A DNA stretch of 59,836 nt, filler included, from Catajapyx aquilonaris (lineage: Eukaryota): assembly GCA_000934665.2 (NCBI GenBank). It is 3 parts of 3 records of this genome, joined end to end, with 100 filler letters (N's around TTAATTAATTAA, not from the genome) between each part and the next. Parts side by side here need not be neighbours in the genome. Positions count along the whole stretch, not along the records: positions 19,983 to 39,870 come from JYFJ02006375.1; 2 more parts are not named here. One strand, given 5' to 3'. The notes beneath the pieces are model-generated. The model made no database searches. It was not told where the DNA came from and saw only the letters and a list, made by a program, of their open reading frames with translations. Positions 17,601 through 38,935 of the stretch are shown piece after piece. Position numbers and translations under genes: made by a program. Position 1 is the first letter of the stretch; every line of letters begins with the position of its first letter.

Positions 17601-17948
17601 AGAACAATGAAGGATTAAAGCAAAAGGTGGGCTTACTTCAGATGGAAGGTGTGGTTCATCAATAATTGGGTTTGTGCTTTAACTTGCTATAAGGAAATTG
17701 AAAATGCATGATAATTTATTATTGGAAACTATTTTTTGTGAGTTCTGGGCTAACCATTGTGAAAGTGTTTTCCTTTTAGCCTGTGAATTTCCAATGTAGT
17801 GCAGGTGCTGTGTCAGAGTTACGGCGACCCGACCATAAAGGCCCCTCGCCAATGTAGTGCAGGTGCTGTGAACTCATGCTAATTGTTTCAGATTGAGTCT
17901 GACCTCAGAATGGCCATTGGGAATGGGTGGGCCATATTGGGGAAATAA
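14623..17948 (+). CDS. SMC6-like protein, N-terminal head half plus short coiled coil; Walker A deleted; possibly truncated (~331 aa) or a pseudogene
   Basis: Exons 14623-14703, 15667-16124, 17227-17626 and putative 17892-17948 are in phase with GT-AG sites. They translate IGILERVIVKNFICH...NIIIGKSAVL...KFIKQG..ASIEVTLSN...YGETI...NIHIDSPIVMLNQEITR/AFL...YKFF..AT, colinear with the SMC6/Rad18 N-terminus. Confidence 0.8.
15137..15441 (-). mobile_element. tRNA-derived SINE family C (conserved invertebrate Deu/Inv-like body)
   Basis: Reverse complement of the 36872-37065 copy: GGTTTTCTGTGGTT...ATAGGCCACAGC, tRNA-like head and A-rich tail. Confidence 0.7.
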
Positions 17949-19603: not shown

Positions 19604-19830
19604 TCACGCGGATGTGGAGACTTGACACGTCCACTCCTTGAACCATATGGCTTGATCGAACAGAACTTCCTGACATTTCTGGAAGAAGGAGGGTCGACTG
19701 TTGTTGATGTACTCCTCTAGGTCATGCGGGAAGCATCTGTGGACACTCCTGATAGCTTCGGCTATGGTAGCGACTAGGTGGAACAGACTAGCGGTCTCCA
19801 GCGACTCGGGTTGGAGGTAAACAGGCATGG
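19604..19830 (-). CDS. Probable terminal coding exon of an unidentified gene cut by the contig end
   Basis: Acceptor TTGTGTTGCAG precedes a 75-codon, GC-richer frame (MPVYLQPESLETASLFHLVATIAEAIRSVHRCFPHDLEEYI...). Product not recognised. Confidence 0.45.
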
Positions 19831-19882
19831 CTGCAACACAACAAAAGTCTCGACATTATTTTGACCCTCTTTTTGAAATAAT

Positions 19883-19982: not shown

Positions 19983-20338
19983 AGCACAGACACGAGGACC
20001 AAACAAGTCCCTCGTCTCCTGTCGCCAAGACTTCTGCAAGAGCGACCGTTACGGCTGATCCTGCTCCGACGCCATCTTGATCTTGTGTACATATACTGTG
20101 CATTAATTGAATTTCCAATAGTCCAGGGTGAAAAAGGAGTGGTTGGAATAATATAGCTGATCCATGCATCGCTTAGTGCAAAATTTATACAATGTGTTTA
20201 TGTGGGGCCTAAATTAATTAAATAATTGCAGTATCTCAAAATAAAAATTTAGGAATAAGAGCGAGGCATGACAGTTCTCTATTGGGCCATTCAATTTTAC
20301 GTGTATACATGTTTCTATATAATAATATACCTTTTCAG

Positions 20339-20620
20339 GCGGGTATAGACATCCAGGCTCTTGTAAACAACAAGAGCGATGGGGTTACTCAGCCCTACAT
20401 ACTGGCTGTTGGGCAGAACCACACGAAAAATTGCAAGCATTTCAGCGTGCTGGACAGGAATTCTGTGGATTTGGGTCAAGCAGATGCGCTTAAAGCATTT
20501 GATTTTCTCTACAAATGCCACCATGTATTTGATGTTGAGTATGATGGGCATCTGGAGAATTTTTACTCGTTTGTGGATGCATTTTTGTATCAGGTGCCAC
20601 ACAAGAAACTGAATACAAAA
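20339..20620 (+). mobile_element. Exon fragment of a DNA-transposon accessory ORF (SAMD3-like, CMC-type)
   Basis: Acceptor CTTTTCAG, then TQPYILAVG...ALKAFDFLYKCHHVFDVEYD..LENFYSFV. Confidence 0.55.
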
Positions 20621-20779
20621 GAGTGGCCACATTTATTTAGCTCTTTTTTGGAGCGAAAAACACACATTTTTCGAGTCATAGTGGCCACTTTCCTCTCTTT
20701 TTTCGAGCCTAAATTAGTCTTTTCGAGCTATTTCATTTTATTATATTTCACGCTTTTAATCTTAGCACTTTGAAGGAGC

Positions 20780-21092
20780 TATTAGACGAGCATCAGGTCT
20801 GGCCCACCAGCCCTCCCAAGAACAGGTAGATGAACTTATTCTTGCTATGGGAGATCAGGCAGACGACACTCTGGACTCATTTGGCCTGTCTCCAGAAGAG
20901 GAGGCCGATTATGAAAGCGTCACAGCAAAGTTTGAGGAATACTTTATAGTGGGAAGGCACATTATCTTTGATAGAGTGCGATTTCACTCACGAGTGCAGG
21001 AGCCCGGAGAAACAGTGGATACCTTTGCCACTGCTCTTCACTCCTTAGCCCAACATTGTAAATTTGGCACATTGCACGATGAGATGATACGA
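20780..21092 (+). mobile_element. Ty3/Gypsy (K02A2.6-like) gag fragment
   Basis: AMGDQADD...YESVTAKFEEYF...IFDRVRFHSRVQEPGETVDTFATALHSLAQHCKFG.LHDEMIR. Confidence 0.85.
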
Positions 21093-21221
21093 TTGGGGAG
21101 GGGGGGGGGGGAGCAGCTGGTAGCTGCAGTTGATGAGTGGTTGGGGGGCAGGAGCGAAATTTTTCTTTTGCACGGCATCCAAGGACTAGAACAGAGATGG
21201 GAAAAGGCGTTTGAGATATGA
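21093..21221 (+). mobile_element. Mariner transposase C-terminal fragment
   Basis: EQLVAAVDEWL...EIFLLHGIQGLEQRWEK matches the mariner AV..WL......F..GI..L..RW.K tail. Confidence 0.75.
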
Positions 21222-21900
21222 CATTATGACTGATATACAAACTCCCGAACAACAACAGCCAATAGTAGACCAACTAACATTGTCTCAGTTCAAATCAGGA
21301 CTTTATTCGAATGGAGTTAAAAAGAATTTGGCCATCTTGAAGCCAAAGACGCTAGATGAAGCTTTGAAATTGGCTCAGGAGGAGGAAGGTCGCGAGGCTG
21401 GAAATTTCTATCGTGACAAAAAAAACCAAACATGGGGTTTTGGTTACGCATCCTGAGGATGATGTGACCGCGACGTTGGCCGACAAGGTAGCCTCTTTGG
21501 CTCATCAATTGGCAAGATATCAACTCGAAATGGAGAGAAGCGTGGAAGAGGCTAGGGCCGCGGTTAATCAACCTCCACCTGCATTTCCATATCCTCCGCC
21601 TACATTCCGAAATCCAAGAGCAGGGAGAGTAAACTTTGCGCCGGGAACGCCTCCGAGACCACCTTTGAGGTGTTTCCAGTGTAATAGTGACCAACACTTA
21701 ATTGCGGGATGCCCCGTGAAAACCGTGTCCCCAAGGCCCGCAAATAACTTGCCCCCAAGCCCAGTAAAATCCTTGCCTCCAAGTCCGTGTCATCAGTGTG
21801 GCGACTGGCACTGGAGACGCGAGTGTCCATTAAATAGAAATGGTACACCCCAAGGTGGCCAAGGCAGGCGGGATAATTACAGGGCCCCTCCTCACCTGCA
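21222..21900 (+). mobile_element. Two abutting Gypsy gag fragments, the second with two zinc knuckles
   Basis: QFKSGL...KPKTLDEALKLAQEEE, then CFQCNSDQHLIAGC and CHQCGDWHWRREC. Confidence 0.8.
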
Positions 21901-22999
21901 TTTTGCCGGAGCCTACACCGGGAGTTCCACCGCCCCCGGTGACACTCAAAGTTGCGGGGCATGCCATCCCCCACGGGTCCCTGATCATTTGCCCGGAGAC
22001 CTTCAGTGGGGGGGATGGAGATCCTCCGTGTAAATAACAATTGGATATCCGACTGGCGTTGGCTGCCTCCAAACGCGACCCTGGTCGCGAGGCCCTGAAA
22101 GCAGACCATCTTCGATCAGATGAGGGTCGGAGGAATAGGACCCCGTCCGGTGTCAACTACGACGGCCGCCACGGATCAGCTGGGCGAATCCGGCTCGGAG
22201 GTCCCTGAGCACGCTGGTGAAACTGTGACGACCCCGGAGCCCGCCAGGAATGTGGTGTTTCGGGTAGTGGCGTCGCAGTGCCCGAGGCTCCGTTTTGGGG
22301 CCGCTGTCCCGACACCGCAGCCTGGAACAGGGGTGGCCGGCCGCGGAGGGAAGAGGAGGAGGCCTGTTGCCGCCCCCCCGGACAACACCACCTGGGGTCC
22401 GAAATCAATGGCCAGTAGCGGTGGAGCGGCCTCGTCATCGCCAGAGTTGCAGTAACACCGTGCCGGCCCAATTGACCACCACACCGGCGCGGCGGACAGC
22501 GCACCGACGGACGACACCCGGGTTCTTTCATATCCTGCCCTGCAACCCAACTCCGAACCCCGGCGCCTCCTGCTGACATCCCCCAGGAGGTCAGAGTGGT
22601 CCGCCCGACTGAGGGACGGCCAGAGGAGACCAACCGTCATTCACATAAGAGGATCACTGCCAGTGAGAGTGTGGGATGGTGGTGTTTCAGGGTTTGCAAT
22701 GTTTATTTCTTTTTTTTATGTTTCTTATTTTTATTCAGTAATATTAGACGGTTTTTTGTCTTTAATTAACTAGTGGATAGGATTCATTACCCCCCCTTGC
22801 GTCATTTTCCTTGCTGTATATCTGTCAAACACGAGATTCCCATGTCTGGGAAATATACCTATACTTATATTTACAAACCAAAAGAATTTTTGTCTGTCCG
22901 GAAAAATTTTCTGAAGAGGGAGGAGATTTGTCACCCAGCGAGGCCTATACCATTTACGTACGCGTTATACATCAAGCTTATACTACTTGATTTCGCCCG

Positions 23000-23570
23000 T
23001 TGTGCAATATCCTTTTAAACACCTGACACTTAGTCATCGGGATATTGCGCAGTTGAGCAGTATTAAATCGATGACAAGGAACAATTTTTCCTTATGCTGC
23101 AGAGTGCAGTTGCGAAAGAGGCGTTGCGCCACCCTCCGCACCTACACTTATTGCACCATAATGTCGCAAGTTTTAACTATAATTCTGCGCGTTAAAGGCA
23201 CTATTGGCCACTATAAAAGGCTCGCAGTTTCCCATCTCTCCAGTCCCTATCCAGAACGGACACCAGTGTATCCTCGATATGTAAGTACCTATCTATGTTT
23301 ATCTTTTATTTTAATGACTTAATAGCGTAATGTTAAATTCTTAGTACCATAATTAATAACTTTGTATTGAAGAAACATAATAAATGTCAGATTACTGTTA
23401 TACTGGTGTACTTCTTACTCTTTGGGTCTGATTATCGGAAAACTTGAACGTCAACTGGAAACCTGGGCTAATCACATTTAAGTTGATGACAGCGCAATGA
23501 TTACGTAAGGAGTTGCGTAACAGGTTACCCAATGTTAATCTCGTTTTCCTGCGCAAGTAGATGGGGTAAC
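23000..23570 (+). mobile_element. LTR-like fragment
   Basis: TATAAAAG at ~23212, AATAAA at ~23378, ends GGGGTAACA. Confidence 0.45.
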
Positions 23571-23609
23571 AGTCACCTTCACTGCATTTGCATTGCATTG
23601 CATTTGAGC

Positions 23610-24301
23610 ATTGCTACAGGATCATGTCCCAGTTGCGGATTGAGCTTCAAAGATTTTAGCTCAAGGTTAAGCCACATGTATACTTCACACCTTTCACGCT
23701 TGAGAGAATGCTTGGAAGCAATAGGCTTGAAGTTGTTGATGGATAACACTATAAGGAATAGGGGGGTGCAAACTGAAACCAGTCCTTCAGACGTTGAAAT
23801 AGAAACAGAAGTTGTTTACGGAACACCTCTTAAAGGCCCACAGATCATGCATGTGAGTTACTTACACTTACCTGCATGGGAGTGGACAGGACCACAAGAA
23901 GCCGTACCGTTAACAGTAGGCAGTAAAGAACCCGTATGGATAGATTTAGAGGCAAGAGATACTCCAGCAGTCTAGACTTAATCACTACGTTGAAATCAGT
24001 ACCAAGCGGAATGGAGATTATGCCAAGACAAAGAACAAAGTTGTACAAGGGGAAAGCAGAAAAGTGTCCAATGATAGAGTGTGCTTGTTCACTTAGCCAA
24101 TACATAAGTAGACCACCTCACTTGGTTAGTCACTTAAACACCAATTGCATGTATTGCCCCATTTGTTGCCGGTCGTGGTATAGCATCCTAGCTTGGATCA
24201 ATCATTTGGTAAACACTCATACAGAGTATATGAACACAGTATTGAAACAAACTGGTTACGAACACATTTTGCACTATGGAAAGACACAAGTCATTATGTA
24301 A
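23610..24301 (+). other. Two C2H2-like zinc-finger ORF fragments (probable retroelement accessory ORFs)
   Basis: CPSCGLSFKDFSSRLSHMYTSH and CPICCRSWYSILAWINHLVNTH. Confidence 0.45.
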
Positions 24302-24434
24302 ATGAATTGAGGCATTTAGAGATGGGGAAGTTATTGCTGCAACCACGCATGCCTCTCATCACCTTGAGAATGTCACGTACAGTCCAGATAGGCCACCTAC
24401 TCCTCCGCCCAGGAAGCCAAGAATCCGATTCGAA

Positions 24435-25170
24435 ATGCAGGACAATGGAGAGGTGATTAAGCAAACAATTCCAGTGGGCAACAACCCAGTACAGTCACGC
24501 CCTGACCAAATTACGTGCCCAATAGTTAATTTGCCAGTAGTAATTGAGTCAGCAGAATCTCGAGGTGAAGGAGGTGCAAAGATTGCTGAGTTAGCACCAC
24601 CGAAAGATAACACTGCAGTTATAAAAGCACTCACTCAATGCCTCATGATAAAGAACAAGGACAAAACCGATGAACTAGAGCCAGTCATATGGGACCGTGA
24701 AAGAGTCATTAGGGAGCAAGATACAGATCCAGTGATTAGGACGCTGAAACAAGAGATGAAGTCAGGCAAATTTGAGGCAGATTACGTTTTGGAGTATGAC
24801 ATATTGTTCAGAAAGGTAGCCCCTTCTTGGAATGAGAGAAGGGAAGAACTAGTGTTTCAGTTGTACGTACCGACAACAATGAGGCGGTACATAATGGAAG
24901 TGTTCCATGAGAGTGTGTTTGCACCGCACTACTCCGAAAAGAAAACGTTTGAGCGAATAAGAAGGCAGTACTTTTGGCCAGGACAAAAGAAAGACATAGA
25001 GAGCTAAGTCTGTAAGTCTAGTGTAAAATGCTTACAAAAGAAAGGAGCAACAAATAGCAAAGCACCATTACAGGCAGTAGACCCAGTTAATTATGAGGTC
25101 GAACCACGACGAAGTGGCCGGGACAGAAAACCACCCCAAAAGTATTCACCATGTAAAAAGCAGAAATAGC
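24435..25170 (+). mobile_element. Gypsy pol fragment (integrase HHCC region) plus polyprotein tail
   Basis: EQDTDPVI...LYVPTTMRRYIMEVFHESVFAPHYSEKKTFERIRRQYFWPG...C..C, then PRRSGRDRKPPQKY. Confidence 0.85.
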
Positions 25171-28100
25171 CCTGCTTGACCGCAGTGTATGTAATGTCCC
25201 TTTGTCCAAGTGTTTAATCTCAAATGTTCAGGTATAACAAGCCGTCTGGACGTTTGACACGACCGGTCACTATGGTGGTCACAACCGTGCCCCTGGGACT
25301 TAAATTGGGTGCAAGGCGTCACCCTGTCAGCAGATTTTCTGCCAGCATATAGTAACGCAGCACGATAACCATCGTGTCAAATCTCCACAACATTAATCAT
25401 AGCCTTAAGTGTGGTTGCAGAAGCACTATGAGGGTGAACAAAGGCGACCACGCCCTAGTCTTTGGACTGTGCAGCCATTCCCGGGTTGCTGAGTGAGCAA
25501 CGCCGTGGAAGGGTGAGACCTGAGAACGTGCCATTCACTGGGGACACAAATGCAACAGACGACTGGAACCGTCTCTATGGACCCCAGCAGGATTCACAGA
25601 TGACCCCTGATGAAATCCTCCAATCCTGCCACTTTAAAACACGACTCCGAACGGAACCCCAAACACTGGTACTAGCAATGTAAGAAGGTGTCAATGATTC
25701 CTGTCATGTAGCCCAGGACTGACATATCATGCTTACATATACATTATTTTTATTTTTATTTTTATTATTTTTAATAGTATATGTATATGTCCAGTCAGTA
25801 TGACTACATAATAAGCCGGTATTGCCAATAACTCATTCAGTAAAACCCATCTGAATCAAACGTTCAATATGTTTTATTGTTATATGGGGTTATGGTCCAA
25901 CTCAAGTTAGAATCCCGACAATTAAAATTTTTAGTTTGAAAACCAGTTATTATTATTTTTCTTCCCCAAATGATACAATTTGAGCAAGTGATAGGGACAC
26001 TCCCCTATGTTTTATTATTATTATATGGGGTGATGATAATATATTAGCCCGCCAGCCAGCCGTTGCAGCCGTTAATACACTGGTTCCGTGGACGACTGGT
26101 CCCTCGCCCACCGGGAATTCCATTTACTATGCAACCAAGACCATGGGTCTTCTCATATTGTCGTCAACTGATGCCGTGGTGGCAGGCCACCGCCTGTTAT
26201 GTTTTGGCGTCCGNTAAATGTAAATGTAATCATGTGAGGAAGGAGGAGGGTCGGCCAAGCGGCATTAGCTGCAGGCCGACAGACTAAATAAAGCACAAAA
26301 CAAACAAACAACAACAACTATCTACTTAGCTGGTGATTGTTACACGGTATGTCCGGAAGGTGGACGGTGAACATCCGATGGCCACTGAATACTTCCAAAA
26401 CCAGAGTTGCGGCCACGGTACTTAGGTCCGCATCGAACGGACTATAGGACAGTCCTTCCTTCCCATTTGGTGCCGTCCCACCATGTTGCTGGACCATGTA
26501 CACTGGTTTCTCTTCTCTCTGGATAGAAGTGGACACCGCAGGCCTTCCGCTCTAGCGGCCTGTTGACACAGTTCCATAAGGACTGAATCGTGCTGCCAAG
26601 CCACTTTTCACCATGGTTGTAGCCAGGTGATATTAAAGTACGTGGTGTGCTGTTTGGAACTAAATCAATACGATAATTACAACGATTTGTAGTCAGGGGG
26701 CACGGTCGTTGCTAGCGCGCCTTCCTCTCCTGGCTACATGCGTTCGGATCCACTCTTGGTGAGTTATTACGTAGCTAACAATGATTGTTGGATGGAAATA
26801 ATTTCGAATTAGCACCAAGGGATGGATCACCAACGGTACCTGCTGACACTGTGGAGCGTCATGAACTCCATGGTGCCGGTAGAGTGCGGTTGGCTTTACA
26901 TTAATAATATACGTGAAAGGAGTCCAATGAATATAATAATGATCAATTCCCAGTAATTACAATATTACAAAATAGTTACGTTGAGTGAAGAAAGAATAAC
27001 TATACCTTGAGAATAATGGAATATAATAATATTTGAAACGGTGCTGAGAGCAGTAAATAAATGAATAATAAATAAGTAATTGAGCTGGTCAAATTTACCA
27101 TCAGCGAATGTCGTATTTTAATTAAGTGAGATGCTTTAATTTTTCCCACAACTATGCTTGTGGAGGCACTTACGAGATGCAAGGTTAAACAATGAGTACT
27201 ATGTATAACATTTTTACTTGCTAAACATTTCAACGTATCACAGCACACCACGTCAAAATAATATAATGCAAAACAAGGAATAATGTCAATCTTAATGAGA
27301 GTATGAATTATAAGTCAATCGATCTTCGCTCCTTTTCACGTCAATATAATGTGAATGTGGTTGAATAAAAATAATATAATAAATACTAAATAACAATCAT
27401 GAAGATACCAATGCATAATAATGATATGATGAGTTAAAGAACACTAAATAATATTAATCACAATTAGGGCTACTTGTTTACTCCGCAAATGCGATGGTTA
27501 ATAATAGATAACCACGAAAGATTAAAAACAGAGGAATAAGCAAGGCCATGCAAGGTTAAATTGCCTGCCTCATTCTGCGTTTGAAATTGATAATTAGACA
27601 ATTCCCAGGTTCACCTTTGGGTGCGTTTTATTTATCCATAGTTGTACCTTTAATGACCTTTTATTTCGGTACGATTAATTCAAGACCCCCTTCTCTCAGG
27701 TCCTTTAGTAGGGCAATGCAAAGGGACCTTCTCCACACGTGCGAAGTCGGGAGAAACCGGCCGCTTTTGCGTCGAGGACGTAATTTGAATGAGTTTCCCG
27801 ACACTCTTTGACTCAGACTCGACAGGTGGCTTTCTGACGTCACAAAATGTTAAGTTCCAAAAAGGGAACCAAGAGTTTGAATGAGTTTTGGCACGGCAAA
27901 CATTCGTCCCACAAATAACCAATTCGCTGCCCTTAAAGAAAAGAGAATCTGTCCTGATGTTTTGTTGTAGTCCCATAATTACCAGGCTACACCGGTTATT
28001 TTGTGTGTATTCGTTTTTTTTTTGTTCTACTTATGCAGTAGAAGACCGTTAGAGAAATGGGTCTTTCCATAATACCGGCAGCTGGTACCATTCAACAATC

Positions 28101-30419
28101 TGCCCCTGGGCAGCCATGACCGGTAATGACCTCTAGTACGACCCTACAGTGGGAAGCGAAATAGTATAATGTGCCCACACTGATATAATGATGACGGATA
28201 TGCAGGTCGTTGGGGGTCCAACCTCCTCCATCTGTGGCTTGTCGGACTCCATCCCTCTGATAATGAAATGGTCCTGGAAATGAACTTTCAGAAAAAGGCC
28301 GAGGAGTTCACAAGAGTTTGAAGCACACTAGGTCTGACCCCTATGTGGTGGCTTGTCGATATCAAAGTTATCTTCACCCAGGGCCCGGGAAGCATAATAA
28401 TAATTATTACGCCACTAATTTTGGAGGAGGGCGTTAAAAGCCAAATCGGAGGTCGTATGTAGGGCAGCAAGCGAATTGATTATTATGGTTATTATGGAAA
28501 AATATTATAATAAATAGGGGTAGTTGTGCATCATATAGCAGGCAAGAATAAGGAGGTCAGAGCGAGTTGTGAATATAGTATTATGATAATGATTGTAGTG
28601 GCAATATTTAAGAAATACTAAAGAAATGAGTCCCGAGAATAAGTGATTACCATCATCCGGTGTTCCTCGAAAGTACCTGACACGTATTACACACATATTG
28701 CCAGACAAGCCATTTTCATTCTTATGATAAGACTATAATAGTGGCAATGGGAGCCACCGAGCGTTTGAGGAAACTATGATGTTCATACGGCAAAGAAGGG
28801 AAACTTGAATACGGGGCCAATAACTTCACAATAAAACAAAGATAGAGATCGTAAAAAGAGAGACTTAACACTTATGATAAATGTAGTCCGGTTGGTTTTA
28901 CAATGGTAGTGTTAAATACTAATGGGACAGTAACTTGCCTACAGGACACAACCACTACGAAGGCCTGCTTCCAACAGCCGTTGTTTAATGCACGGTACAC
29001 GATTAAGTTTTAGTCCTCAGACGCTTCTACCATTTCAAGGAATAGCGGGTTACTATTTGTAGCATTATAGGCTCATCAATTGATGATGCAATACCCAGAG
29101 CGACACATTGTTTGGTATTTTCGTCAGAATACCACGTATTTTCCTTAAGGAAGCCAGTACAGGCCGGTAGGATAAGGTCGGCAGGCTCCTAGCCGACCGG
29201 TGGGAGAAAGTCCAGCATAAAACGAACACATAAAATAATATGAAATTAATAATAATCTTAATGATATTGTCAATGACGTAACAAGTAACCATGATAAAAC
29301 AAAACATAGGCCATGAGTCAGCCATTATCACAGTGATAGGTCGCATTTTTAAAAAATGAACGTCCTTTTATAGACTCTTCGGAGTAATTCAACATGTTCC
29401 AACATGTTCCACTGACTTATCACCAGCTCCAATTTTTGCTAATTGCTATTCAAGTAAACGGAAGGCTTTTGCTTAACTCCACGTGCAAGCCAGCATTGCA
29501 CCAATGTTCTTCCATATGCATAGAGTCTGGATGGACTGAAGCAACTGCCTCAATCTTTTGTCGCATCATTCTCTTTGAAATATTTTGGGATGTTGGTAAT
29601 GTACAGCGCTCTATAATCAGTCATCACATCGATCCTTTGTGGGGAAATTTTTGTCTCCATCTCCTCCAGTCTCCGCAAGTGCCACACAATTATTCCTCTG
29701 AGCAGGATACTGCTGTGTTTGACTTAGGCCACCTGCAGGCTCCTTAGAGAATATCACTCTCTTTTCCCCAACCCTCTGGGGACGGAAAATGACCGGATGT
29801 CTCTTTCCAAACATTCCATTCCAGTTTTGTGGAGAACCAAAAGGCTCCCACCAGTTATGGAGTTTTTCTCCTATCATGAGCATTGCCACTCCCGTTCCAG
29901 TTTTGTGTAGGCTCGAACACAGAGACAACGGTTAGAAACAAACCGTTATCCTAGTACCATCCAATTTTAAAAGACGATTATCTCTCGGGAATGGGTCCCG
30001 GAGCGCCCGGACTGTGCGTATAAAGGCTTCGGAACGGATAATGCCTATTGCGAACAATCTTGGCATGAGAAAATTTAACACGGAAACTTTATACGGTGTG
30101 ACATCATCTATCCCACGTGGCTCTGTCTCAGGGTCCAAAATGGTAGCTTGTCACTGGTAAATGAGGTCTAGGTCATCCTGCCTGATTTCCACCATTACCG
30201 GTGAAATGGGAGGATCTAAGAATATAGGCAGACTGATAAGTGCCCACAACTCGCAAATGCTCCAATAATACAATTAAACTAATAAAAAGTCAAGCGGCCC
30301 TTCCATGTTGTAGACGATCCGCTGTCCGGTCGGACTCAGCTGCCGCAAGTACTCCTCGTAGATGCTGCGTACACCCAATGATACAGGTCATTACGTTAAT
30401 TAAAAGTCATAGCAGCATA

Positions 30420-30620
30420 GTTGCTGACTTCTGTGTCACTATGGAAGGCAACTTGCTAAGGAAGATTTTGCAATTCTTGTTGGGAAGGTTTGGGTGAATA
30501 TTAGAGCAGAGGTCATCAGGCATTCTTTTGAAAAAAAAACTTGAATTTTTGATACACGGCTTCCTTTTCCAGTCAACAGCGATGCATTTCCCAGGGACAA
30601 ATTTGATCAAACAGAACTCC
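30420..30620 (+). mobile_element. pogo/Fot1 (DDE_1) transposase C-terminal fragment
   Basis: + strand reads RQLAKEDFAILVGKVWVNIRAEVIRHSF...FPVNSDAFPRDKF. Confidence 0.55.
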
Positions 30621-32094
30621 AGAATATTTGGAGTCACTGTCACCAGAACCGAACAGGCCTACTACCTGAGAGGGTTCAACCTCACAACTTCATTCAGCGC
30701 CTCATTCAGCCAGTTCATCAGATGTGAATAATGTGGTCAGCTAAAAATAACCTCCTTCCAACTACAACAACGATTATGTAGCGGGGTATGGAGCAGGGGA
30801 AGGCAGGCACCATGTTGAACCCGATCAAGGCAGCAGCCATTTTGAACAACCCCCCCGAGTCAAGCCGAATATTCTAGAAGGCCCAAATTCACAATATCTA
30901 CTGCCCGGACTTATAGCTCCACAGATAGAAGGACAACCAACCATAGGTAAGTCGAGCCGAGTATAATGGGTGCCCACCTGACACCCTGTTTCTTCATTTA
31001 AGTGCACCCAGCAACCGGTGACATTTTCCTGCAGGTGATCAACGACTGAGAAATGTCTGACATCCTACACGCCATCTCTAATCTTCGAAGTTTGCCAATC
31101 CAGGGGATGGAAAAGATCTGTGACAAGTATATTGATCGCATTCAGACTCTTCGATGCTTAAGAAAGATTAACGCGCATCGACGAAGGCAAGCCAACATTC
31201 TCTATCGAGAAAGACAAGATAGATGGTCATTTGAATTATTTAGCAATGAAGAACAGTTCTGCTCATCGTTGCCTAAAGAGTTCATATATGACATTTTACC
31301 TGTGATTGGAAAACAATGTGATCGTATATTTAATATCTGTATACCTGTGTCATGCCGCACACCTTCAGATGTACAGTGTTTGGCAAGCTCTCAAGGAAAG
31401 GTGTGTACATGTAGAACTGGAGTAAAATATCGACGAGGATCATTTAATTGTTTATTCAAGCCTTGTGTAAATAGTAGCCTACATATCAAATATGTTTCAC
31501 ATTAAATAATACATTAGCTGTTATATATGGTTGTTGGTAGTTTCATTTACGGGTAAATAATCTCTGGACCATCATAAGACAGGTACCACTGCTCCAGCCT
31601 CGCTTCAGCCTCGGGTTCGCCCCCATGCTTTCGGGGACTTAGTCCTCCCTACCATCCTGACCGGTACAAGGTGTACTGTTCGGTCAGAGTTGCCCAAATA
31701 CGCTCATCACATTATTTCAGGCCCACCTCCATGGGTCGCAAACAGACTACAGATGACTCCAACAAAGAGGGATGTACCAGATCCCAAGACACTTCAGGCG
31801 AACCCTGCAAAGAGGGCTGCACCAGCTCCTGGTCAGACCTTGGAGTGCGAGCCTGGGAACCCTGTAGGCACGGGCTTACAACAGTTTGTTACAATTGGTA
31901 CATTAAATGGTGCTTGTGGTTTCAGGAGGCTACAGAGGCTTACATAGTTGGCCCACAATGTTGCCCTAGTAAATGTCACCTGGGAACCCTACACACCTCA
32001 TATAGCAATCGAACGGATTCATGACATGGGCGAGTGTGCCATTACATAAGTTTCAGATAGGAACTCCAAGCAGGCAAAGGTTGACATCTGATGG

Positions 32095-32290
32095 GTGGAA
32101 GTGTTTTCCCATTTCCAAACGAACTCTGTTCCATGTGATGAAATAATAATAAAATCGTTGAATTTATTCTGTCTCCTCGGGACTAATGCACCTACTGAAA
32201 GAATCATCTCACATGAACGGACAAGCGAGAAAACACAGCTTAGCATTCAAACATTGAAAGCAATGCTTATTGTGAAATGTAACTTCGAGA
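32095..32290 (+). mobile_element. hAT transposase dimerisation-domain fragment
   Basis: CLLGTNAPTERIIS....EKTQLSIQTLKAMLIVKCNF. Confidence 0.75.
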
Positions 32291-32399
32291 GCGTCAGCAC
32301 CGAGGACCCGTGCGAGATACTTCACGACGCGACGTCCTCATGCAGCGCCCAGATCTACTGAGGAAATACATATGTCTCAAAAGTATTCTTTGGCAACTG

Positions 32400-33483
32400 T
32401 GGTTCCAGAGGGGGCGACTCCAAGCATTACTTAAGCAGCTGTAAGCAAGATGCCAAGTTTTGCCAAACTCACCAGTGCCTCGCAATTGGCGTGACTTTCT
32501 TCGAAATAACCGCAACAAGGGGAAAAAAAAATCTCTCCTAGGAAGGGATCTAGTTGAGAATGTGAGAACTGCAATGGTCGTCACTAAGATTGCAGAAGTC
32601 AGTTCTGAAACCGCTACAACATCTCTTGTTGGACTTACTTGCACTTCTTATGAGGAGACAGATGGACGGATTATAGTGCACACAAGAGATGCAGTCATCC
32701 ATGCTGGGACCGGAACCGTTCTCATAAGAACTGTTGATACTATGTTTTGGTCCTTGCCATATCTTTCTTCTTTGAGTTGAGGACTTTGGGCCTTGAAGAA
32801 CTGTGGGTTTCAATTAACTTTGGTCAGAAACAAAGGTACACTCCAGCTCACATCATTGCCTTGGCGCTTGGTTCAGAGAAATCTGTCGCCCTATGGGGCT
32901 TCCACGCATTCACAGGGTGTGACACTGTTTCAACATCTGCATTCCCTGGGAAACTCAGTGCCTGGAAAACATGGCAGTCCTATGATACGGCTACTGCTGC
33001 TTTCAGTGCCATTACAACTCCACTTCCAGAACTGCCAATGGACGTACTCCATGAGCTTGAACAATTTGTTGTCTGCATGTACCATAAGAAATATTTGGGC
33101 AACAAGACACATGTTTTCGACTTCCTAAGAAAACCTGTGTGACCAACATCAGAAGCACTCCGACAGCATGCTTTGAGAAAGAAGCAGCTACCAAGCCGCC
33201 AAAAGAAGCAGCTACCAAGCCACCAAAAAAAGCAGCTACCAAGCCACCAAAAGAAGCAGCTACCAAGCCGCGGCCCAAGGGCGGCCACATTTGGGATCAG
33301 TGCATGAACCCGCACGCAGAAATCCCTAGTCCAGATAACTGGGGATGGATGAAAGATGGTTCAAACTGGCTTCTGAAGTGGACGTCTCTTCCCACAATAT
33401 GGCAGGGCTGTCGTGATCTTGTGAAGTGCAGATGCAAAGCAGGATGTTCTGTGACTTCAAACTGCAGCTGTAGACGCTACTAG
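32400..33483 (+). mobile_element. Academ transposase C-terminal fragment (frameshifted)
   Basis: PRNWRDFL, EETDGRIIVH, RTVDT, FHAFTGCDTVS, GKLSAWK, LEQFVVCMY, PSPDNWGW, LVKCRCKAGC...NCSC. Confidence 0.85.
33178..33270 (+). repeat. 24-bp tandem repeat, ~4 copies
   Basis: Unit AAAGAAGCAGCTACCAAGCCACCA. Confidence 0.9.
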
Positions 33484-34789
33484 TAGCGTGAGTCGAGATA
33501 GTTGCTGGTGTGACAGAGTTGATTACCGTACCATTCGACTACCACCTATGTCTACAAACAAGTCGAATATCTGTCAGATCATGCGAGCGCTTACCTCTTC
33601 TTACCCAGCATGCATTGTAGCACCATGATATAAGCCCGAACATTTCTGTAATCGAGGCCAGTCGCCTGGGGTAGATCCTAGTGGCTGGTCAGACCGTGAG
33701 GTCTTCCTTCCTGTACTTTACCTAACCTTAGCTATCCTGTAGTCTTTCCATCTTTGATTGGTCGAATAAAAGTCGTTCTGGTTTACCCACTGCATATTCT
33801 TCAAGTGATCCCAACCGCTCGGGGTCACACTGGCTTATGCTCTAATTTTGGCGGTTTTTTGTTAAGGTCGTATTGGGCCCCGAAATATTTACTCACTCCA
33901 ACCTCCAATATGTTACACCCCAACCATTTAATACAACATGTGCTGAATATGCTATTATCCCTTCATCGTACTAGTCGCGTACCCGGTATATCAGATCCCT
34001 TTATTTTTTATTATTGCTACTGAGAGGAGTATGTTAGGTCTCCACCGCAGAAATGGAGTTCAAGCACATAAACTTGAGATACGCAATGGTACCGAAGGAT
34101 CCATCTGATGGGATGGCCCCCTCTTGGGCGACTATTTAAGTCGCCTCCATACAAGCACCCGCCTGACCATCATTTGCCCGGAGGCTTTCAGCGGGGGTAT
34201 GCAGATACTGCGGGTGAATAATAACTGGATCTCCGATTGGCGTTGGTTGTCTCCGGACTCGACCCTGGTAGTGCGGCCCTGGGATCATTTCTCCAGCGCC
34301 AAGAGCCTCCATTCCTCTACCTCTGGCTGGGAGTCCAAATTGCCTGCCTTGGACCAGAGGCAATTGGCAACTTGGTGGTCCATGCAGTAGTGTCTGGGGT
34401 GGGGGACATAATGGGGCTGCCGGTCAACATCGCCCAGTCCATTGCGGCCATGGTTGTGGTGGTGGTGGTGGTGTTTGTCATTTATTGCAAGGTATGTTAC
34501 GAAATGTTTTATTTTACTGCGGTACTGATTTTATTTGACTTGTACACTTGCAGAATATGAAGAAACAGGGGGCGAAGAAACGGGAGACCAAGGTGCAAGA
34601 AACCCAAGTCTAAGGGTGTCTTTCCTTCCTGGTTCGCGACAATCCAACCCCTCTGGTGCGACATGTCACCGTGGATTAGATGCTTGGAGGCGGTGACGTC
34701 AGAGGCCAGCTCGAAAACTGCAATATACTCTGACAATTACTGTGGCTTGTGTTGACTATAGTGATCCGACATGTGACAGTTCTCTTTAG

Positions 34790-35245
34790 GTACCCACGGT
34801 GCATGCACCAAGTGTCCTGGTAACCAAAACCGAAGAGAACCAGAGGCAGTATTCTTTACATATGGATGGGAGTGCTGTGTGCTGCAATTTGGAAGATTTT
34901 GACACTTGTTTGGCCGGAATTTTGGCCCTGTATTTTACTTTTGATGTACAATACCCAAAAAAGTGTAGGAGTACACTATACTTCCTACAGGTAGAATTGG
35001 CAGGCATCAAGGAGACGCAGGAAAAAGTACCCATATCTGTCAGCAGACTGATGTCTTACTTATCGCTCAAAAGCCAGCTAAAAATAATCAAGAACCGCCT
35101 GAGGAACGCAATGGAAAACGAGTTCCTCAGGGCGGCAATTTTTATGGCCATGGAGAGAGACCTTACCTACAAAATAGATAATGTTGATGTGCTGGAAGCT
35201 TTAGCAAGGTCTTCTCCACTTCTCAGCCGACTTCTTTTGTATGAC
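34790..35245 (+). mobile_element. Chimeric cassette: SAMD3/CMC-type exon fused to an hAT transposase C-terminus
   Basis: ALYFTFDVQYPK..STLYFLQ joined to SQLKIIKNRLRNAM...ERDL...DVLEALA. 296 bp of it recurs at 35960-36255. Confidence 0.7.
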
Positions 35246-35960
35246 GTGGCCGAATTTGCCACCAGAATCAAAAAACTTGGGCGAAAAAATAACCAGAAGC
35301 TTGGGCAGTAGGAGAGTCTCCCATGTTGCAGGCACAGCTATTGGCTCAGTACAGAAAGGGACTCACTTCGAGAAATATCCGGCAAATGCTAAGCTGGAAA
35401 GACCCCAAAACATTAGAGCAGGCAGTAGAACTGGCTCGTAAGGAAGAAACCAATGAGAAAGGTTATATGTACAAGTCGCGAAAGGGAAGCGAATTGCATG
35501 CTATTGACATGCTATTGACGGAACTAATCCGAGCGTACAGGGTAAGGCACACTGTACGTTTTGCGGAAAAGTAGGTCATTGAGCTGTCTATTGCTACGCA
35601 AGAATAGGAAGGAAAACAACTCCACCTCAAGGGCACGGTCAGGCGCAAAATAAGAGATGTTGTAATCGAGGGCCTTCCATGTAGGATGTTATTGCACTCA
35701 GGCGCAAGAATAAGTGTAATAAGTGATGATGTCTGGCAACGCATATGTCAGGGCAATAAACTGTACAGTGGAAATGATGTAATAGGAGTAGGAGTAACAG
35801 GGGACTTGTTGTTGCCATTGTTGGGAAGCCGCAGAATATGGATAGATGTAGGTAATAGAAGATATTACCACCAACTTTGGGTAGCTAGCAAGTTGCCGTT
35901 GAGAATGGCAGAAGGTATTTTAGGTTGGGACTTTATGCAAGACGGGGATCTAAAAATAAA
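35246..35960 (+). mobile_element. Gypsy gag and aspartic protease fragments
   Basis: VAEFATRIKKLG, PKTLEQAVELA, then MLLHSGARISVIS...GILGWDFM (degenerate DSGA motif). Confidence 0.75.
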
Positions 35961-36255
35961 CTTTTGATGTACAATACCCAAAAAAGTGTAGGAGTACACT
36001 ATACTTCCTGCAGGTAGAATTGGCAGGCATCAAGGAGACGCAGGAAAAAGTACCCATATCTGTCAGAAGACTGATGTCTTACTTATCGCTCAAAAGCCAG
36101 CTAAAAATAATCAAGAACCGCCTGAGGAACGCAATGGAAAACGAGTTCCTCAGGGCGGCAATTTTTATGGCCGTGGAGAGAGACCTTACCTACAAAATAG
36201 ATAATGTTGATGTGCTGGAAGCTTTTGCAAGGTCTTCTCCACTTCTCAGCCGACT

Positions 36256-36765
36256 CTGTGAGAAGAGAATAGTGTTAAATCCTAAGCCTGTAATTGTGCC
36301 TTTGACTCATAATGGACAGTGGTTGTTCAACACTGCCGAAGATATTAAGTTACACATAAGCTGCCCCAAATCCGACAAGGACGCTGGGCATACGAGTCAC
36401 GTATTGTTGAGTGGTACTGGACGTGCGGTCATTCCAATGGGTTGCTCAGCCCATGCCACAGGGCTGCGAACAATTTCATTGGAAGAACACAGCGGAGGAA
36501 ACAAGTGGATGGACAATTTATTTTCCCTCATTTGGACGGTGTATTAACTGATGTAGAACATCTGTTCGTTGCTGCCCGCCAGCATGTGAATATGTTGCAG
36601 CATAAAAATGTGAGCAAAGTGATGCGAATGTTGAGAGAAACTGAAAATATTGTTGGTAAACACGAGTACCAGGTGCCACTAAGACAGTTCCAACACTCAC
36701 TGAAGGAATTAAATGAACGGGATAGTGATAATTTGCTAAACGATATCAGTAGTTTACCGTTGTAA
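36256..36765 (+). mobile_element. Retroelement envelope-like fragment
   Basis: CEKRIV...GQWLF...LHISCP...LSGTGRAVIPMGCSA resembles the C-terminal part of errantivirus-type env; assignment from memory. Confidence 0.5.
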
Positions 36766-36871
36766 TATGTGCCACTCCACTTTTCCCACCATCCTGCTTG
36801 CCGAAGATTTGAATAATTACCCATCAGGATAACTATCCAAACTTACGGAGGGGGAATTGTTACACCTGTGC

Positions 36872-37065
36872 AACCGAAGCAGTAGTGGAGTGGATAGGGT
36901 GTCCGACTGCTAATCGGAAGGTCCTGGGTTCGAATCCCGGAGGCCGGCGACCCTGACCATGGTTTTCTGTGGTTTCCCATGGTCCTTGCAGGATAATTCC
37001 GGGGTCGTTACCGTAATATAGGCCACAGCCGCTTCCTTCCTTCCCTTTCCCTGCTTCATTCCGCT
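36872..37065 (+). mobile_element. tRNA-derived SINE family C
   Basis: tRNA-like head (GGTTCGAATCC B-box) followed by GGTTTTCTGTGGTTTCCC...GGCCACAGCCGCTTCCTTCC. Confidence 0.75.
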
Positions 37066-38396
37066 GAGAAAAATAGTACAAATGGAAGAGTTCCAGACAA
37101 AAAAATTGGGAGAAATCCCCCCCTAGAAAAGCCCGGCAGGCTGATAATGGGGTATCAAATTATTAAAAAATTATTATCAAATTATTATTGTTACACCCGT
37201 GCATTGTTGGATCCAGGTCCATATATGGTTCAAACGCGGGGTTGTTTACCAGGAGGCTGCCCGACTATTAAGATAATAAACTGCATGGTCAGCAGAGACA
37301 TGAGCAGTGTGGACATTGTCTTCAAAACAGGGGCGTAGGTCGTACATGCCTGGGGGCAACTGCCTGGTATGCAACCAGAGGGTTTAAAAGGGGGTGACCG
37401 CCCCAGAGCAGCGTCTTTTTATTTTGATCGGTCGAGAGTGAGTGAACAGTGAGGATCACGGGCATGTAATTGCTTGATTGATTGTTAATAAACTTCTGTT
37501 ATTGACCCATCGTCCTTCTTTGAGATACCATTGGAGCCAATCCCAGGTCAGCAAAGGTCAAAGTGCAACAGTATGGTCCCAAGGTCATTCCTACAAAATT
37601 TCATGCTTTTATCACCAAGTGCACTGGCGACCTTTGACATGGAAGGCAACAATAAAAACAAAATCCATCGATTGCAGCATATCAAACCAATTATTTTAGT
37701 TCAGAAACCAAACTGCCGTAATTTTGCTATTGTCCTTTCAAGTGTGCCCATTAAAGGGTTAATAACAGAATATGCCACCATAACCAATAAAAGGTGGACT
37801 CAAAATTTGCGCTCTATGTGACGTTGTCACCACCTAGCTCTTAACTGTGGCTGTCTGGGTATTAGAATATGTAAAGGTGGGACAACTCTTGAACCCACAT
37901 TTGATGTGGAATGTGGGCTGTTCTTGACCCACGACTAAACAATAAGACAAACACAGATGGCAATCAGGAAGCCAGTACAAGCTGTGTTTCATGTTGGCTT
38001 GGTCAACAAAGACAAGGTCATGTAAGTCACTGACCTTCCTTTGATACTAGTTCCCTGAATATGCAGAAACACACTCAACATGTAGCCAAAGGTGATATCT
38101 GACCCTAATGCCGATGCAGCTTGTGTCATGTGCTTGCCAACTTTGATTACATCTTGTCATTTAATGGTACATGAGAAGACTTGAGCCTTCCAGGCAGCAA
38201 CAGTGTGTGTTGCATCTTGTCTGGAACCAGGAAAAGGCGTGGATTAGGCCCCTGGGTCTTCTTCCCAACCGCTACCCCCACGTTGTCCCCGCCAGCATCC
38301 CGCAAGGGATCTCTTGATGGTTGGGGGATTGAAGCCCTTCCCTTCCCTCCTTCCCAAAGGCCTCTATCTTCATGTTGTTCCTCCAAGTCCTCCTCA

Positions 38397-38436
<40 letters not shown>

Positions 38437-38584
38437 NGGGGGGGGCCTTAAGTCAATTCTGGCATCACTTTAAGTGAGTGAGTTTTTTCTGACACAATGG
38501 AAACATAACTCAAAGTGGCAAGTACTACTAGTTCAACATGGCTAACATGCCTACAGCTGCATATGGGCAGACTTGTGGAACCTT

Positions 38585-38935
38585 AGGGAGGCAAAGTGGC
38601 TGGAGTAACGTATGCTCCCATGGATGTTAAGGTCCCGAGTTCGATCCCAGCCCGGGGTTCCTCCCTTCATCTCGTGCAGAGTTGAACCGTCTCGGGCTTC
38701 GTCTCGGGTGGAATCTCCAACAGACTAATCCACCCGGGGGAGTTCAGAAAACGACTAAGCAGTGACATTACTCTTGCACTTTGCGCATCCCCTCCAAGTC
38801 ACCTTGCCCTTGGACCAGGACCCTTCGCCAAAAGGGCCAAAGATGGCCCAGCACAAAGTAATTATATAAAAAATTTTAAAAAATTAAAAAAAAACAAAAA
38901 GAAACAAGAAAAACAAACAAACAAACAAAAAATTA
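38585..38935 (+). mobile_element. tRNA-derived SINE family B with TSD
   Basis: B-box GAGTTCGATCC and A-rich tail, flanked by the direct repeat AGACTTGTGGAACCTT (38569-38584 and 38937-38952). Confidence 0.8.

What the first reader, a model, noticed from the sequence alone, without database searches (positions are those of the whole stretch)
20282..36800. Strand-uniform library of short fragments from many transposon superfamilies: candidate uni-strand piRNA cluster built by fragment capture
Seen: about 15 recognisable pieces, mostly 0.1-1.1 kb, butted end to end. In order: CMC-type exon, K02A2.6 gag, mariner tail, two Gypsy gags, LTR, zinc fingers, integrase, pogo tail, hAT dimer domain, Academ, LTR, CMC exon, hAT, gag, protease, env. 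Every recognisable coding piece is on the + strand, and the DNA-transposon pieces have no TIRs or TSDs. In contrast, contigs 1 and 3 contain terminus-bearing MITEs and SINEs. Known: uni-strand piRNA clusters such as Drosophila flamenco hold co-oriented TE fragments antisense to transcription, but mostly as nested LTR insertions. Inference: internal coding slivers of both class I and class II elements suggest acquisition by a route other than transposition (capture or template switching). The result would be a compact genomic memory of the mobilome, transcribed from the minus strand.
Basis: partly seen in the sequence, partly recalled or inferred. Interest (0 to 1): 0.85.

Follow-up and report, generated by a model that had tools for sequence, protein, structure and literature searches.

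The report
One-strand array of transposon gene remnants
A 17-kb gene-free stretch of an animal genome holds broken retrotransposon and repeat-family genes that all read on the same strand, the layout of a one-strand piRNA source locus, but no RNA data could be brought to bear and the idea that the pieces were captured without transposition is not shown.

Summary
The window is three unrelated contigs; the finding lies in the middle one (19983-39870). The core observation holds. Coding remnants are real and sit only on the + strand. This rests on Pfam scans of all ORFs on both strands, on tblastn with 151 fetched relatives, and on a database-free ORF-length test: 24 ORFs of 100 aa or more on + against 5.6 expected, 13 on - against 7.7. 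The detail holds less well. I could support about 6 pieces firmly and about 6 weakly, not 15. The labels CMC, Academ, pogo, both hAT pieces and the LTRs were not confirmed. The stretch 25.1-31.0 kb has no recognisable coding on either strand. The "CMC exons" are C-terminal domains of a SAMD3-like multicopy family. gag, protease and env-like pieces at 34.1-36.8 kb are collinear, which fits one internally deleted Gypsy element rather than separately captured slivers. One real non-transpositional footprint exists: a 727-nt gag/protease sliver flanked by 296-nt direct copies with 4 mismatches. The same scan has already noted at least six such one-strand arrays elsewhere in this genome. Verdict: a further, small, plausible but unproven candidate of a known kind.

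The parts
20228..20707 (+).
   Evidence: 247 proteins at E<=1e-3 among 1.84 billion representatives, best 7.3e-12. They match query residues about 36-130, which in the long relatives is their last ~90 residues; 149 tblastn matches fall here. SAM_1/SAM_2 in 3 of 25 long relatives; no transposase domain in any of the 25.
   Evidence: 13 of 30 nearest Atlas clusters are Retrotrans_gag at 0.93, but only 134-141 shared features, and the first hit is a bacterial hypothetical cluster. Pfam found nothing. The search for homologous proteins found nothing.
21117..21209 (+). Possible mariner transposase C-terminal tail, 31 aa, in frame with the gag-like piece; not significant
   Evidence: ORF residues 118-148 align to Mos1 transposase residues 306-336 of 345, E 0.73-0.87, in 4 distinct PDB sequences. 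No Pfam hit.
21190..22030 (+). C-terminal part of a Gypsy-type gag: capsid end plus two CCHC-like knuckles
   Evidence: Ty3_capsid E 0.036 (profile positions 137-185) in 21190-21453; Lin-28A-like zf-CCHC_2 E 0.018 and zf-CCHC E 2.6 in 21368-22030. The CCHC spacing can be read directly in the translation.
21984..22452 (+). gag N-terminal-like piece, same family as 34169-34281
   Evidence: 21984-22097 against 34169-34281, 81% over 114 nt, same orientation; tblastx agrees. The gag label comes from my reading of the translation, not from a tool.
23490..24298 (+). ORFs with single C2H2-like zinc fingers, origin unknown
   Evidence: zf-C2H2 E 0.012 (23490-23972); zf-C2H2_4 E 0.26 (23927-24298). Both below Pfam cut-offs.
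24690..25106 (+). Sliver of a Gypsy pol: linker plus integrase H2C2 zinc-binding domain, with no RT, RNase H or integrase core beside it
   Evidence: Integrase_H2C2 at 2.5e-11 and 1.2e-11. P0151 (1379-aa Gypsy polyprotein) residues 527-660 match at 42% identity, E 6.6e-20. The rest of P0151 matches nothing on either strand at E<0.2.
25107..31049 (.).
   Evidence: no Pfam hit in the three + frames read through stops, up to 30004; no hit in the three - frames read through stops; no ORF excess on either strand; 25459-25680 gave 0 families at E<=5.
31050..32021 (+). Two long + ORFs (151 and 148 aa) of unknown origin
   Evidence: ORF list; no meaningful Pfam hit.
32092..32358 (+). Claimed hAT tail; not confirmed
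   Evidence: 0 families at E<=5; 0 PDB sequences at E<=1. It resembles a hAT C-terminus only by eye.
32445..33480 (+). About 1 kb remnant, in three frames, of a widespread eukaryotic multicopy 'hypothetical protein' family with a Cys-rich tail; contains a 24-nt tandem repeat at 33178-33269
   Evidence: nearest Atlas clusters score 0.96-0.97 with 197-201 shared features, all eukaryotic and without a common Pfam family. XPG_I and TCR appear only as leads (14% of members, scores 0.80-0.82); tandem repeat; no PDB hit.
34109..34557 (+). gag N-terminal-like piece, second copy of the family at 21984
34790..35232 (+). Second SAMD3-like C-terminal remnant (34808-35047); its last 296 nt (34937-35232) are copy 1 of direct repeat D1
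   Evidence: 3 tblastn matches, best 1.75e-5. D1.
35233..35959 (+). 727-nt sliver of a Gypsy element: gag capsid end (35293-35571) and aspartic protease (35608-35964), lying between the two D1 copies
   Evidence: Ty3_capsid 1.6e-3; Asp_protease_2 7e-5; RVP 1.6e-3; retroviral-like aspartic protease 1, E 3.1e-4.
35960..36255 (+). Copy 2 of direct repeat D1: 296 nt, 4 mismatches, sharp ends
36256..36762 (+). env-like piece that starts where D1 copy 2 ends; weak
   Evidence: Baculo_F E 0.015, ORF 35960-36544 residues 98-163 (nt 36251-36448), below Pfam cut-off.
36850..37190 (+). tRNA-derived SINE, also on the + strand
   Evidence: B-box GGTTCGAATCC at 36927-36937 on +; sequence with an A-box-like head and an A/T-rich tail; 79% match to contig 1, 15259-15442, in reverse orientation.
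38399..38850 (-). SINE-like retroposon on the - strand with a 38-nt A tail. It lies outside the finding and marks where strand uniformity ends.
   Evidence: T38 run at 38399-38436; 80% alignment to contig 1, 3100-3400.

Best explanation
The stretch 20.2-37.2 kb of the middle contig is a gene-free graveyard of old, truncated mobile-element genes.

Contents: three or four Gypsy-type gag pieces, one protease, one integrase zinc-finger sliver, one env-like piece, two remnants of a SAMD3-like multicopy family, one remnant of another multicopy eukaryotic family, and a tRNA-SINE. All point the same way.

Most likely reading: the stretch is part of a long transcription unit read from the minus strand, in which only insertions antisense to the transcript are kept. 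This is the layout of a uni-strand piRNA cluster, whose precursor would give small RNAs antisense to these elements.

How the pieces arrived: most by ordinary insertion, then cut down by deletion and local rearrangement. At least one arrived through a duplication-associated rearrangement.

Shown: the pieces, their common strand, the absence of host genes, and the D1 duplication. Inferred: transcription, its direction, piRNA production, and selection on orientation.
For: - Strand-exclusive TE domains.
- tblastn of 151 fetched relatives hits only the + strand at E<=1e-3.
- ORF excess on + only, in two blocks (0 of 200 shuffles reach it).
- The method does detect minus-strand genes elsewhere.
- The SINE at 36.85-37.19 kb is also on +.
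- The pieces come from several unrelated families.
- Co-oriented, Gypsy-rich remnant arrays are the defining content of flam-like clusters (PMC10643416, passages read). Unidirectional arrays of LTR fragments occur in Aedes piRNA clusters (10.1101/127498, passages read).
- Earlier notes of this scan report several larger one-strand arrays in the same genome. I did not check these.
Against: - No RNA evidence of any kind.
- Only about 6 firmly supported pieces. Some are probably parts of one element, so there are fewer independent insertions than pieces.
- About 6 kb in the middle shows nothing on either strand.
- The array is at most 17 kb on a 19.9-kb contig, far below flamenco.
- AATAAA is not depleted on the proposed transcribed strand: 21 on - against 13 on + within 20282-36800 (my count). 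TE sense strands avoid this hexamer themselves, so this weighs little.
- No promoter or upstream gene could be identified.
- Junctions are unverified by reads.
Confidence: 0.4

Rival explanations
1. The array lies in a very long intron, UTR or read-through region of an ordinary minus-strand gene. Sense-oriented insertions are removed because they bring splice and poly(A) signals. The strand bias is a by-product and no piRNAs are made.
For: - Earlier notes of this scan describe gene-free stretches with candidate recursive splice sites, read as giant introns, in this genome (unchecked).
- Antisense bias of TEs in introns is established knowledge (recalled).
- Contigs 1 and 3 of this window are genic, with TE-poor coding.
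Against: - No host exon was found on either strand of the 19.9-kb contig. The one minus-strand hit, OAF_C at E 0.005, is at chance level for 213 ORFs.
- No fly-type ratchet-point motif anywhere in the window (0 matches, 0.02 expected).
- Intronic bias is usually partial, not complete (recalled).
Confidence: 0.25
2. The co-orientation is mechanical rather than selected. A few chimeric LTR-retroelement copies, made by reverse-transcriptase template switching between co-packaged RNAs (which joins pieces sense to sense), inserted here and then decayed. The real number of independent insertions would then be about 2-4, and their shared strand could be chance.
For: - Non-retroelement pieces sit directly against Gypsy gag pieces in the same sense: the SAMD3-like remnant between gag-N and gag-C, and a gag-like piece running in frame into a mariner-like tail.
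- The A-B-A structure of D1 is what a switch away and back would leave (inference).
- gag, protease and env-like pieces are collinear.
- Template switching with LTR elements is the proposed route for virus-TE hybrids in Aedes clusters, where partners share orientation (10.1101/127498, passages read).
Against: - No LTR pair flanks any block.
- No RT or RNase H remnant on either strand.
- The mariner tail is not significant.
- The pieces differ in state: open ORFs of 173-195 aa next to frame-shifted ones.
- The tRNA-SINE is an independent insertion and also lies on +.
Confidence: 0.2
3. Chance or assembly artefact. This is an ordinary repeat-rich region, or a chimeric short-read contig, whose few recognisable pieces happen to share a strand. 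It was picked out of hundreds of windows by a reader that reads the + strand more easily.
For: - Only about 6 firm pieces, against 533 windows with notes in this genome.
- The assembly has single-N positions and a 38-nt homopolymer.
- Junctions could not be checked.
Against: - The database-free ORF test is strongly one-sided in two separate blocks.
- The D1 copies differ at 4 of 296 positions, which a simple assembly duplication would not give.
- The four DNA runs hold 0.86-0.89 of the sampled words. All four come from one sample, which may be the source of the assembly, so they are not independent support.
Confidence: 0.1
4. The whole mosaic is one copy of a multicopy composite element (Helitron-, Pack- or Maverick-like carrier, or a large segmental repeat).
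For: Nothing direct. Copy number could not be measured.
Against: - No inverted repeats of 40 nt or more in the contig.
- No look-alike stretch among the scan's other windows for two junction-bearing queries (0 windows).
- No helicase, Rep or polymerase domain.
Confidence: 0.05

Closest known systems
Drosophila flamenco and flam-like uni-strand piRNA clusters (PMC10643416, passages read)
   Same: - Gene-free array of truncated TE remnants all in one orientation.
- Gypsy-type pieces, including an env-like one, make up about half of what can be recognised.
   Different: - No piRNA, transcript, promoter or synteny evidence here.
- At most 17 kb, cut by the contig end, against hundreds of kb.
- In flam-like clusters the bias is driven by Gypsy elements alone. 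Here non-retroelement multicopy families and a SINE share the strand.
- The organism is not a fly. The closest Gypsy polyprotein found is from a decapod crustacean, which does not identify the host.
Unidirectional EVE/LTR piRNA clusters of Aedes mosquitoes (10.1101/127498) and read-through core clusters (10.1101/2022.08.22.504762); passages read in both
   Same: - Short co-oriented fragments interspersed with Ty3/gypsy pieces.
- A proposed non-transpositional entry route (template switching) for some fragments.
- Clusters often have no promoter of their own and are driven by an upstream gene.
   Different: - No fragment of a non-retroviral virus was found here.
- No upstream gene is identified on this contig.
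- No small-RNA data.
Internally deleted errantivirus/Gypsy provirus
   Same: 34.1-36.8 kb keeps the order gag-N, gag-C, protease, env-like on one strand.
   Different: - No LTR pair, and no RT, RNase H or integrase core.
- A foreign SAMD3-like remnant is present twice inside it.
Earlier notes of this scan on the same genome (e1-7683629, e1-7683656, e1-7506408, e1-7596252, e1-7683721, e1-7682800)
   Same: One-strand transposon graveyards read as candidate uni-strand piRNA clusters, all without RNA data.
   Different: Those stretches are 19-60 kb with more fragments. This one is smaller, has a blank middle, and shows the D1 duplication. I did not re-examine those loci.

Membership tests
Uni-strand (flamenco-like) piRNA cluster | Abundant 23-32-nt, 1U-biased small RNAs mapping to one strand only | not testable with these tools
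   no RNA holder listed among the 5 runs.
Uni-strand (flamenco-like) piRNA cluster | TE remnants co-oriented across the locus | tested here: met
   every supported piece and the ORF excess are on +, none on -, within 20.2-37.2 kb.
Uni-strand (flamenco-like) piRNA cluster | TE remnants antisense to a single long precursor that starts at a defined promoter or upstream gene | not testable with these tools
   No RNA data. No host gene found on the contig.
Uni-strand (flamenco-like) piRNA cluster | Enrichment of env-bearing Gypsy elements, which drive the strand bias (PMC10643416) | tested here: inconclusive
   Gypsy-type gag, protease and integrase pieces and a weak Baculo_F hit are present. The other families share the bias, and no genome-wide background is available.
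Uni-strand (flamenco-like) piRNA cluster | Size of tens to hundreds of kb | tested here: inconclusive
   About 17 kb. The left edge is within 250 nt of the contig end. The right edge lies near 37.2-38.4 kb, where a minus-strand SINE appears.
Aedes-type EVE-bearing unidirectional cluster | Fragments of non-retroviral RNA viruses among the LTR pieces | tested here: not met
   No viral domain other than retroelement ones. The Totivirus_coat hit at E 0.87 is noise.
Pack-type, Helitron or other fragment-carrying composite transposon | Defined termini (TIRs or Helitron ends) and multiple genomic copies sharing the same junctions | tested here: inconclusive
   0 inverted repeats of 40 nt or more. No look-alikes among scan windows. 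Copy number in the genome is not testable because no genome is held.
   Relatives are about 350-700-aa proteins in which this is the C-terminal domain. 3 of 25 scanned carry a SAM domain and none carries a transposase domain.
hAT transposase dimerisation domain (two claimed pieces) | Match to Dimer_Tnp_hAT or to a solved hAT transposase | tested here: not met
   0 Pfam families at E<=5 for 25459-25680 and for 32092-32358; 0 PDB hits for 32092-32358.

The most novel reading that the evidence does not exclude
This species keeps many compact one-strand arrays into which internal slivers of mobile-element and multicopy-gene transcripts are written by a templated, non-transpositional route. That route would be reverse-transcriptase template switching or copy-in during break repair. 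The 296-nt duplication around the gag/protease sliver would be its footprint. The arrays would then be a written record of the mobilome that feeds antisense piRNAs, rather than a passive trap.
Probability: 0.08. Interest if true: 0.75.

Novelty: new member of a known kind. Interest (0 to 1): 0.27.

Why it matters
If small RNAs confirm it, this locus and its larger siblings in the same genome would extend flamenco-type one-strand clusters to a non-fly animal. They would also extend them to content beyond Gypsy elements. The D1 junction would give one concrete case for asking how fragments enter such loci. On present evidence it is one more plausible but unproven candidate, and the scan already holds better examples from this genome.

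Tried and rejected
- RNA evidence. The look-up of sequencing runs listed no RNA holder (4 DNA runs of one sample with shares 0.86-0.89, and one run of unknown kind with share 0.10).
Nothing was laid, so junction support, depth and copy number remain open.
- Whole genome. None is held.
- Read-through frame as protein query (1413 aa): 5070 candidates, none scored. The sampled words were too sparse.
- gag/mariner ORF against longer proteins: 916 candidates, none scored.
I repeated it with 3 frames per call, and it added nothing beyond the ORF scan.
- PDB sequence searches. 32092-32358 and 32445-32777 gave nothing. The gag/mariner ORF gave only chance-level hits.
- Rfam and ARAGORN found nothing in contig 2.
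- Literature search for Academ and XPG returned only irrelevant papers, because the word start matched 'academic'.
- Look-alikes of two junction-bearing stretches among the scan's other windows: none.
- Ratchet-point motif: 0 matches.
- OAF_C hit on a minus-strand ORF (E 0.005): rejected as chance. Four unrelated DUF/OAF hits of similar strength occur among the 213 ORFs.
- Idea rejected: D1 as an LTR pair. The repeat carries the coding sequence of the SAMD3-like domain, and the ORF runs through it.
- First script of the ORF test timed out and was rewritten.

Full report
WHAT THE WINDOW IS
The 59,836 bases are three separate contigs joined by N...TTAATTAATTAA...N spacers: 1-19882, 19983-39870 and 39971-59836. 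The finding (20282-36800) lies in the middle contig, within 300 nt of its left end. No whole genome is held for this window, so copy number and genome-wide background could not be measured.

IS THE STRAND CLAIM REAL, OR A READING BIAS?
A reader without tools sees forward-strand coding more easily than reverse-strand coding, so I tested both strands alike.

1. Pfam on all ORFs. I scanned all 213 stop-to-stop ORFs of 45 aa or more in the contig (94 on +, 119 on -, E<=0.01).
   - TE domains appeared in 3 of the 94 + ORFs and none of the 119 - ORFs: Integrase_H2C2 (24306-25004, 2.5e-11), Asp_protease_2 with RVP (35608-35964, 7e-5) and Ty3_capsid (35293-35571, 1.6e-3).
   - Four unrelated hits below cut-off (three on +, one on -) are chance-level.
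2. Pfam at E<=5. I scanned 69 of the 130 ORFs of 58 aa or more (36 on +, 33 on -).
   - More TE-type hits appeared, again only on +: a second Ty3_capsid (21190-21453, 0.036), a CCHC knuckle (21368-22030, 0.018) and Baculo_F, the errantivirus-type env family (35960-36544, 0.015).
   - The 33 - ORFs gave only unrelated noise.
3. A test that needs no database (100 order-1 Markov shuffles in 500-nt blocks).
   - ORFs of 100 aa or more: 24 on + against 5.6 +/- 1.9 expected (0 of 100 shuffles reach it); 13 on - against 7.7 +/- 2.4 (3 of 100).
   - ORFs of 130 aa or more: 13 on + against 1.4 expected; 3 on - against 2.4.
   - Five of the 13 long - ORFs lie opposite the G+C-rich gag region at 21.3-22.6 kb, where antisense ORFs are expected.
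   - Contigs 1 and 3 show no asymmetry.
4. Control (101 ORFs of 75 aa or more). The same ORF-plus-Pfam method on contigs 1 and 3 finds minus-strand host exons and a plus-strand one, and no TE domains.
   - Minus strand: Prefoldin at 9564-9815 and an Ig/fn3 gene at 48075-50929.
   - Plus strand: SMC_N at 15610-16125.

WHAT THE PIECES ARE

- The ORF 20222-20770 found 247 proteins at E<=1e-3 among 1.84 billion representatives (best 7.3e-12).
- In the longer relatives (about 350-700 aa) the match is always the last ~90 residues.
- Of the 25 long relatives I scanned (out of 150 listed), 3 carry an N-terminal SAM domain and none carries a transposase domain.
- I recall this architecture as 'SAMD3-like'; that name comes from memory. 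The CMC label is not supported.
- tblastn with all 150 relatives places them at 20228-20707 (149 matches) and 34808-35047 (3 matches). Both sites are on +, with nothing on - and nothing in contigs 1 or 3.

The integrase piece
- It is a true sliver. The one relative found (P0151, a 1379-aa Gypsy polyprotein) matches only with residues 527-660, at 24690-25106 (42% identity, E 6.6e-20).
- Its RT, RNase H and integrase core match nothing on either strand at E<0.2.

The piece at 32445-33480
- It belongs to a widespread eukaryotic 'hypothetical protein' family (Atlas 0.96-0.97).
- An XPG/PIN-like nature is only a lead: 14% of members in clusters scoring about 0.8.

The 'K02A2.6 gag' at 20766-21100
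- It has only Atlas support: 13 of 30 clusters are Retrotrans_gag at 0.93, with low shared-feature counts.
- Two word-index searches found nothing.

The 'mariner tail'
- 31 residues align to the right place in Mos1 (residues 306-336 of 345), but at E 0.7-0.9.

The two gag N-terminal-like pieces
- 21984-22097 and 34169-34281 are 81% identical and co-oriented.

The protease
- It is also supported by solved retroviral-like proteases (E 3e-4).

The SINE at about 36850-37190
- It is tRNA-derived and on the + strand.

Not confirmed
- Both hAT pieces (0 Pfam families at E<=5; no PDB hit for 32092-32358).
- The pogo tail and Academ.
- Both LTRs (no matching direct repeats).

HOW THE PIECES ARE ARRANGED
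They are not butted end to end throughout.
- The ORF excess sits in 20282-25100 and 32001-36800 (0 of 200 shuffles reach it in either block), with two further long ORFs at 31.05-32.02 kb.
- The stretch 25.1-31.0 kb shows no ORF excess. Pfam gave no hit in its three + frames read through stops up to 30004, in its + ORFs of 45 aa or more beyond that, or in its three - frames read through stops.
- Recognised coding covers roughly 5 of 16.5 kb.
- To the right, a SINE-like retroposon with a 38-nt A tail lies on the minus strand at 38399-38850. Strand uniformity therefore ends between 37.2 and 38.4 kb.

HOW THE PIECES GOT THERE
That inference is weak.
- The class II labels it depends on mostly failed.
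- Any old truncated remnant lacks termini.
- At 34.1-36.8 kb the pieces follow the canonical order gag-N, gag-C, protease, env-like. That fits one Gypsy-type element that lost its pol region.

One structure is not what an integrase or transposase leaves.
- A 727-nt gag-C/protease sliver (35233-35959) sits between two 296-nt direct copies (34937-35232 and 35960-36255). The copies differ at 4 positions and have sharp ends.
- The repeat carries the end of the SAMD3-like ORF, so it is not an LTR.
- The env-like match begins exactly where the second copy ends.
- This A-B-A layout fits several origins: a templated insertion with a long target duplication, a template switch away and back during reverse transcription, or unequal recombination.
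- I could not check it against reads.
- The four mismatches argue against a plain assembly duplication.

FUNCTION
- The layout matches what defines flam-like clusters: co-oriented, Gypsy-rich remnants (PMC10643416, passages read).
- It also resembles the unidirectional LTR-fragment arrays of Aedes piRNA clusters, where template switching has been proposed for virus-TE hybrids (10.1101/127498, passages read). Many of the Aedes core clusters are driven by read-through from an upstream gene (10.1101/2022.08.22.504762, passages read).
- Against the cluster reading: the locus is small, it has a blank middle, and no promoter or upstream gene is visible.
- AATAAA is more frequent on the proposed transcribed strand (21 against 13 within 20282-36800, my count). 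TE sense strands avoid this hexamer, so this weighs little.

RIVALS
- A long intron or read-through region of a minus-strand gene would give the same orientation bias without piRNAs. Earlier notes of this scan describe candidate giant introns in this genome (unchecked). Here I found no host exon and no ratchet-point motif.
- A few chimeric LTR elements made by template switching would make co-orientation mechanical. The number of independent insertions would then be too small for the bias to mean anything.
- Chance or misassembly is unlikely given the ORF test, but it is not excluded for the junctions.
- A multicopy composite element could not be tested. No inverted repeats of 40 nt or more were found, and no look-alikes among the scan's windows.

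STANDING
The scan has already reported at least six larger one-strand TE arrays in this genome with the same reading and the same lack of RNA data. This locus is a smaller further member. Its one distinctive feature is the D1 duplication around a retroelement sliver.

Noticed in passing
window 34937-35232 and 35960-36255: A 296-nt direct repeat with 4 mismatches and sharp ends encloses a 727-nt gag/protease sliver. The repeat carries part of an open ORF of the SAMD3-like family. It is a long target duplication or template-switch footprint, not an LTR pair.
   Followed up: partly
window 20766-21218: A single open frame of 151 aa runs from a gag-like segment straight into 31 residues that align, not significantly, with the C-terminal tail of Mos1 mariner transposase. 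This may be an in-frame chimeric junction.
   Followed up: partly
window 33178-33269: A 24-nt tandem repeat (3.8 copies, 95% matches) inside the decayed multicopy-family gene encodes a repeated KEAATKPP motif.
   Followed up: no
window 38399-38850 (minus strand): A SINE-like retroposon with a 38-nt A tail, about 80% like contig 1, 3100-3400. It is the only oriented element found on the minus strand of contig 2 and marks the right edge of strand uniformity.
   Followed up: partly
window 5476-5591: A palindromic hairpin scores on both strands against the Rfam mir-5985 model (58 bits, below the gathering score of 100). It is probably a MITE-derived hairpin in contig 1.
   Followed up: no
window 48075-50929 (minus strand), 9564-9815 (minus strand), 15610-16125 (plus strand): Host-gene exons in the two flanking contigs: an Ig/fibronectin-III cell-adhesion-type gene, a prefoldin subunit exon, and an SMC/RecF-type N-terminal exon. 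These contigs are genic and showed no TE protein domains.
   Followed up: no
window 32919-32957 (+) and 17784-17822 (-): A 13-aa stretch of the multicopy family at 32.4-33.5 kb recurs in contig 1 on the opposite strand (77% identity, tblastx). The family is therefore dispersed in both orientations elsewhere.
   Followed up: no
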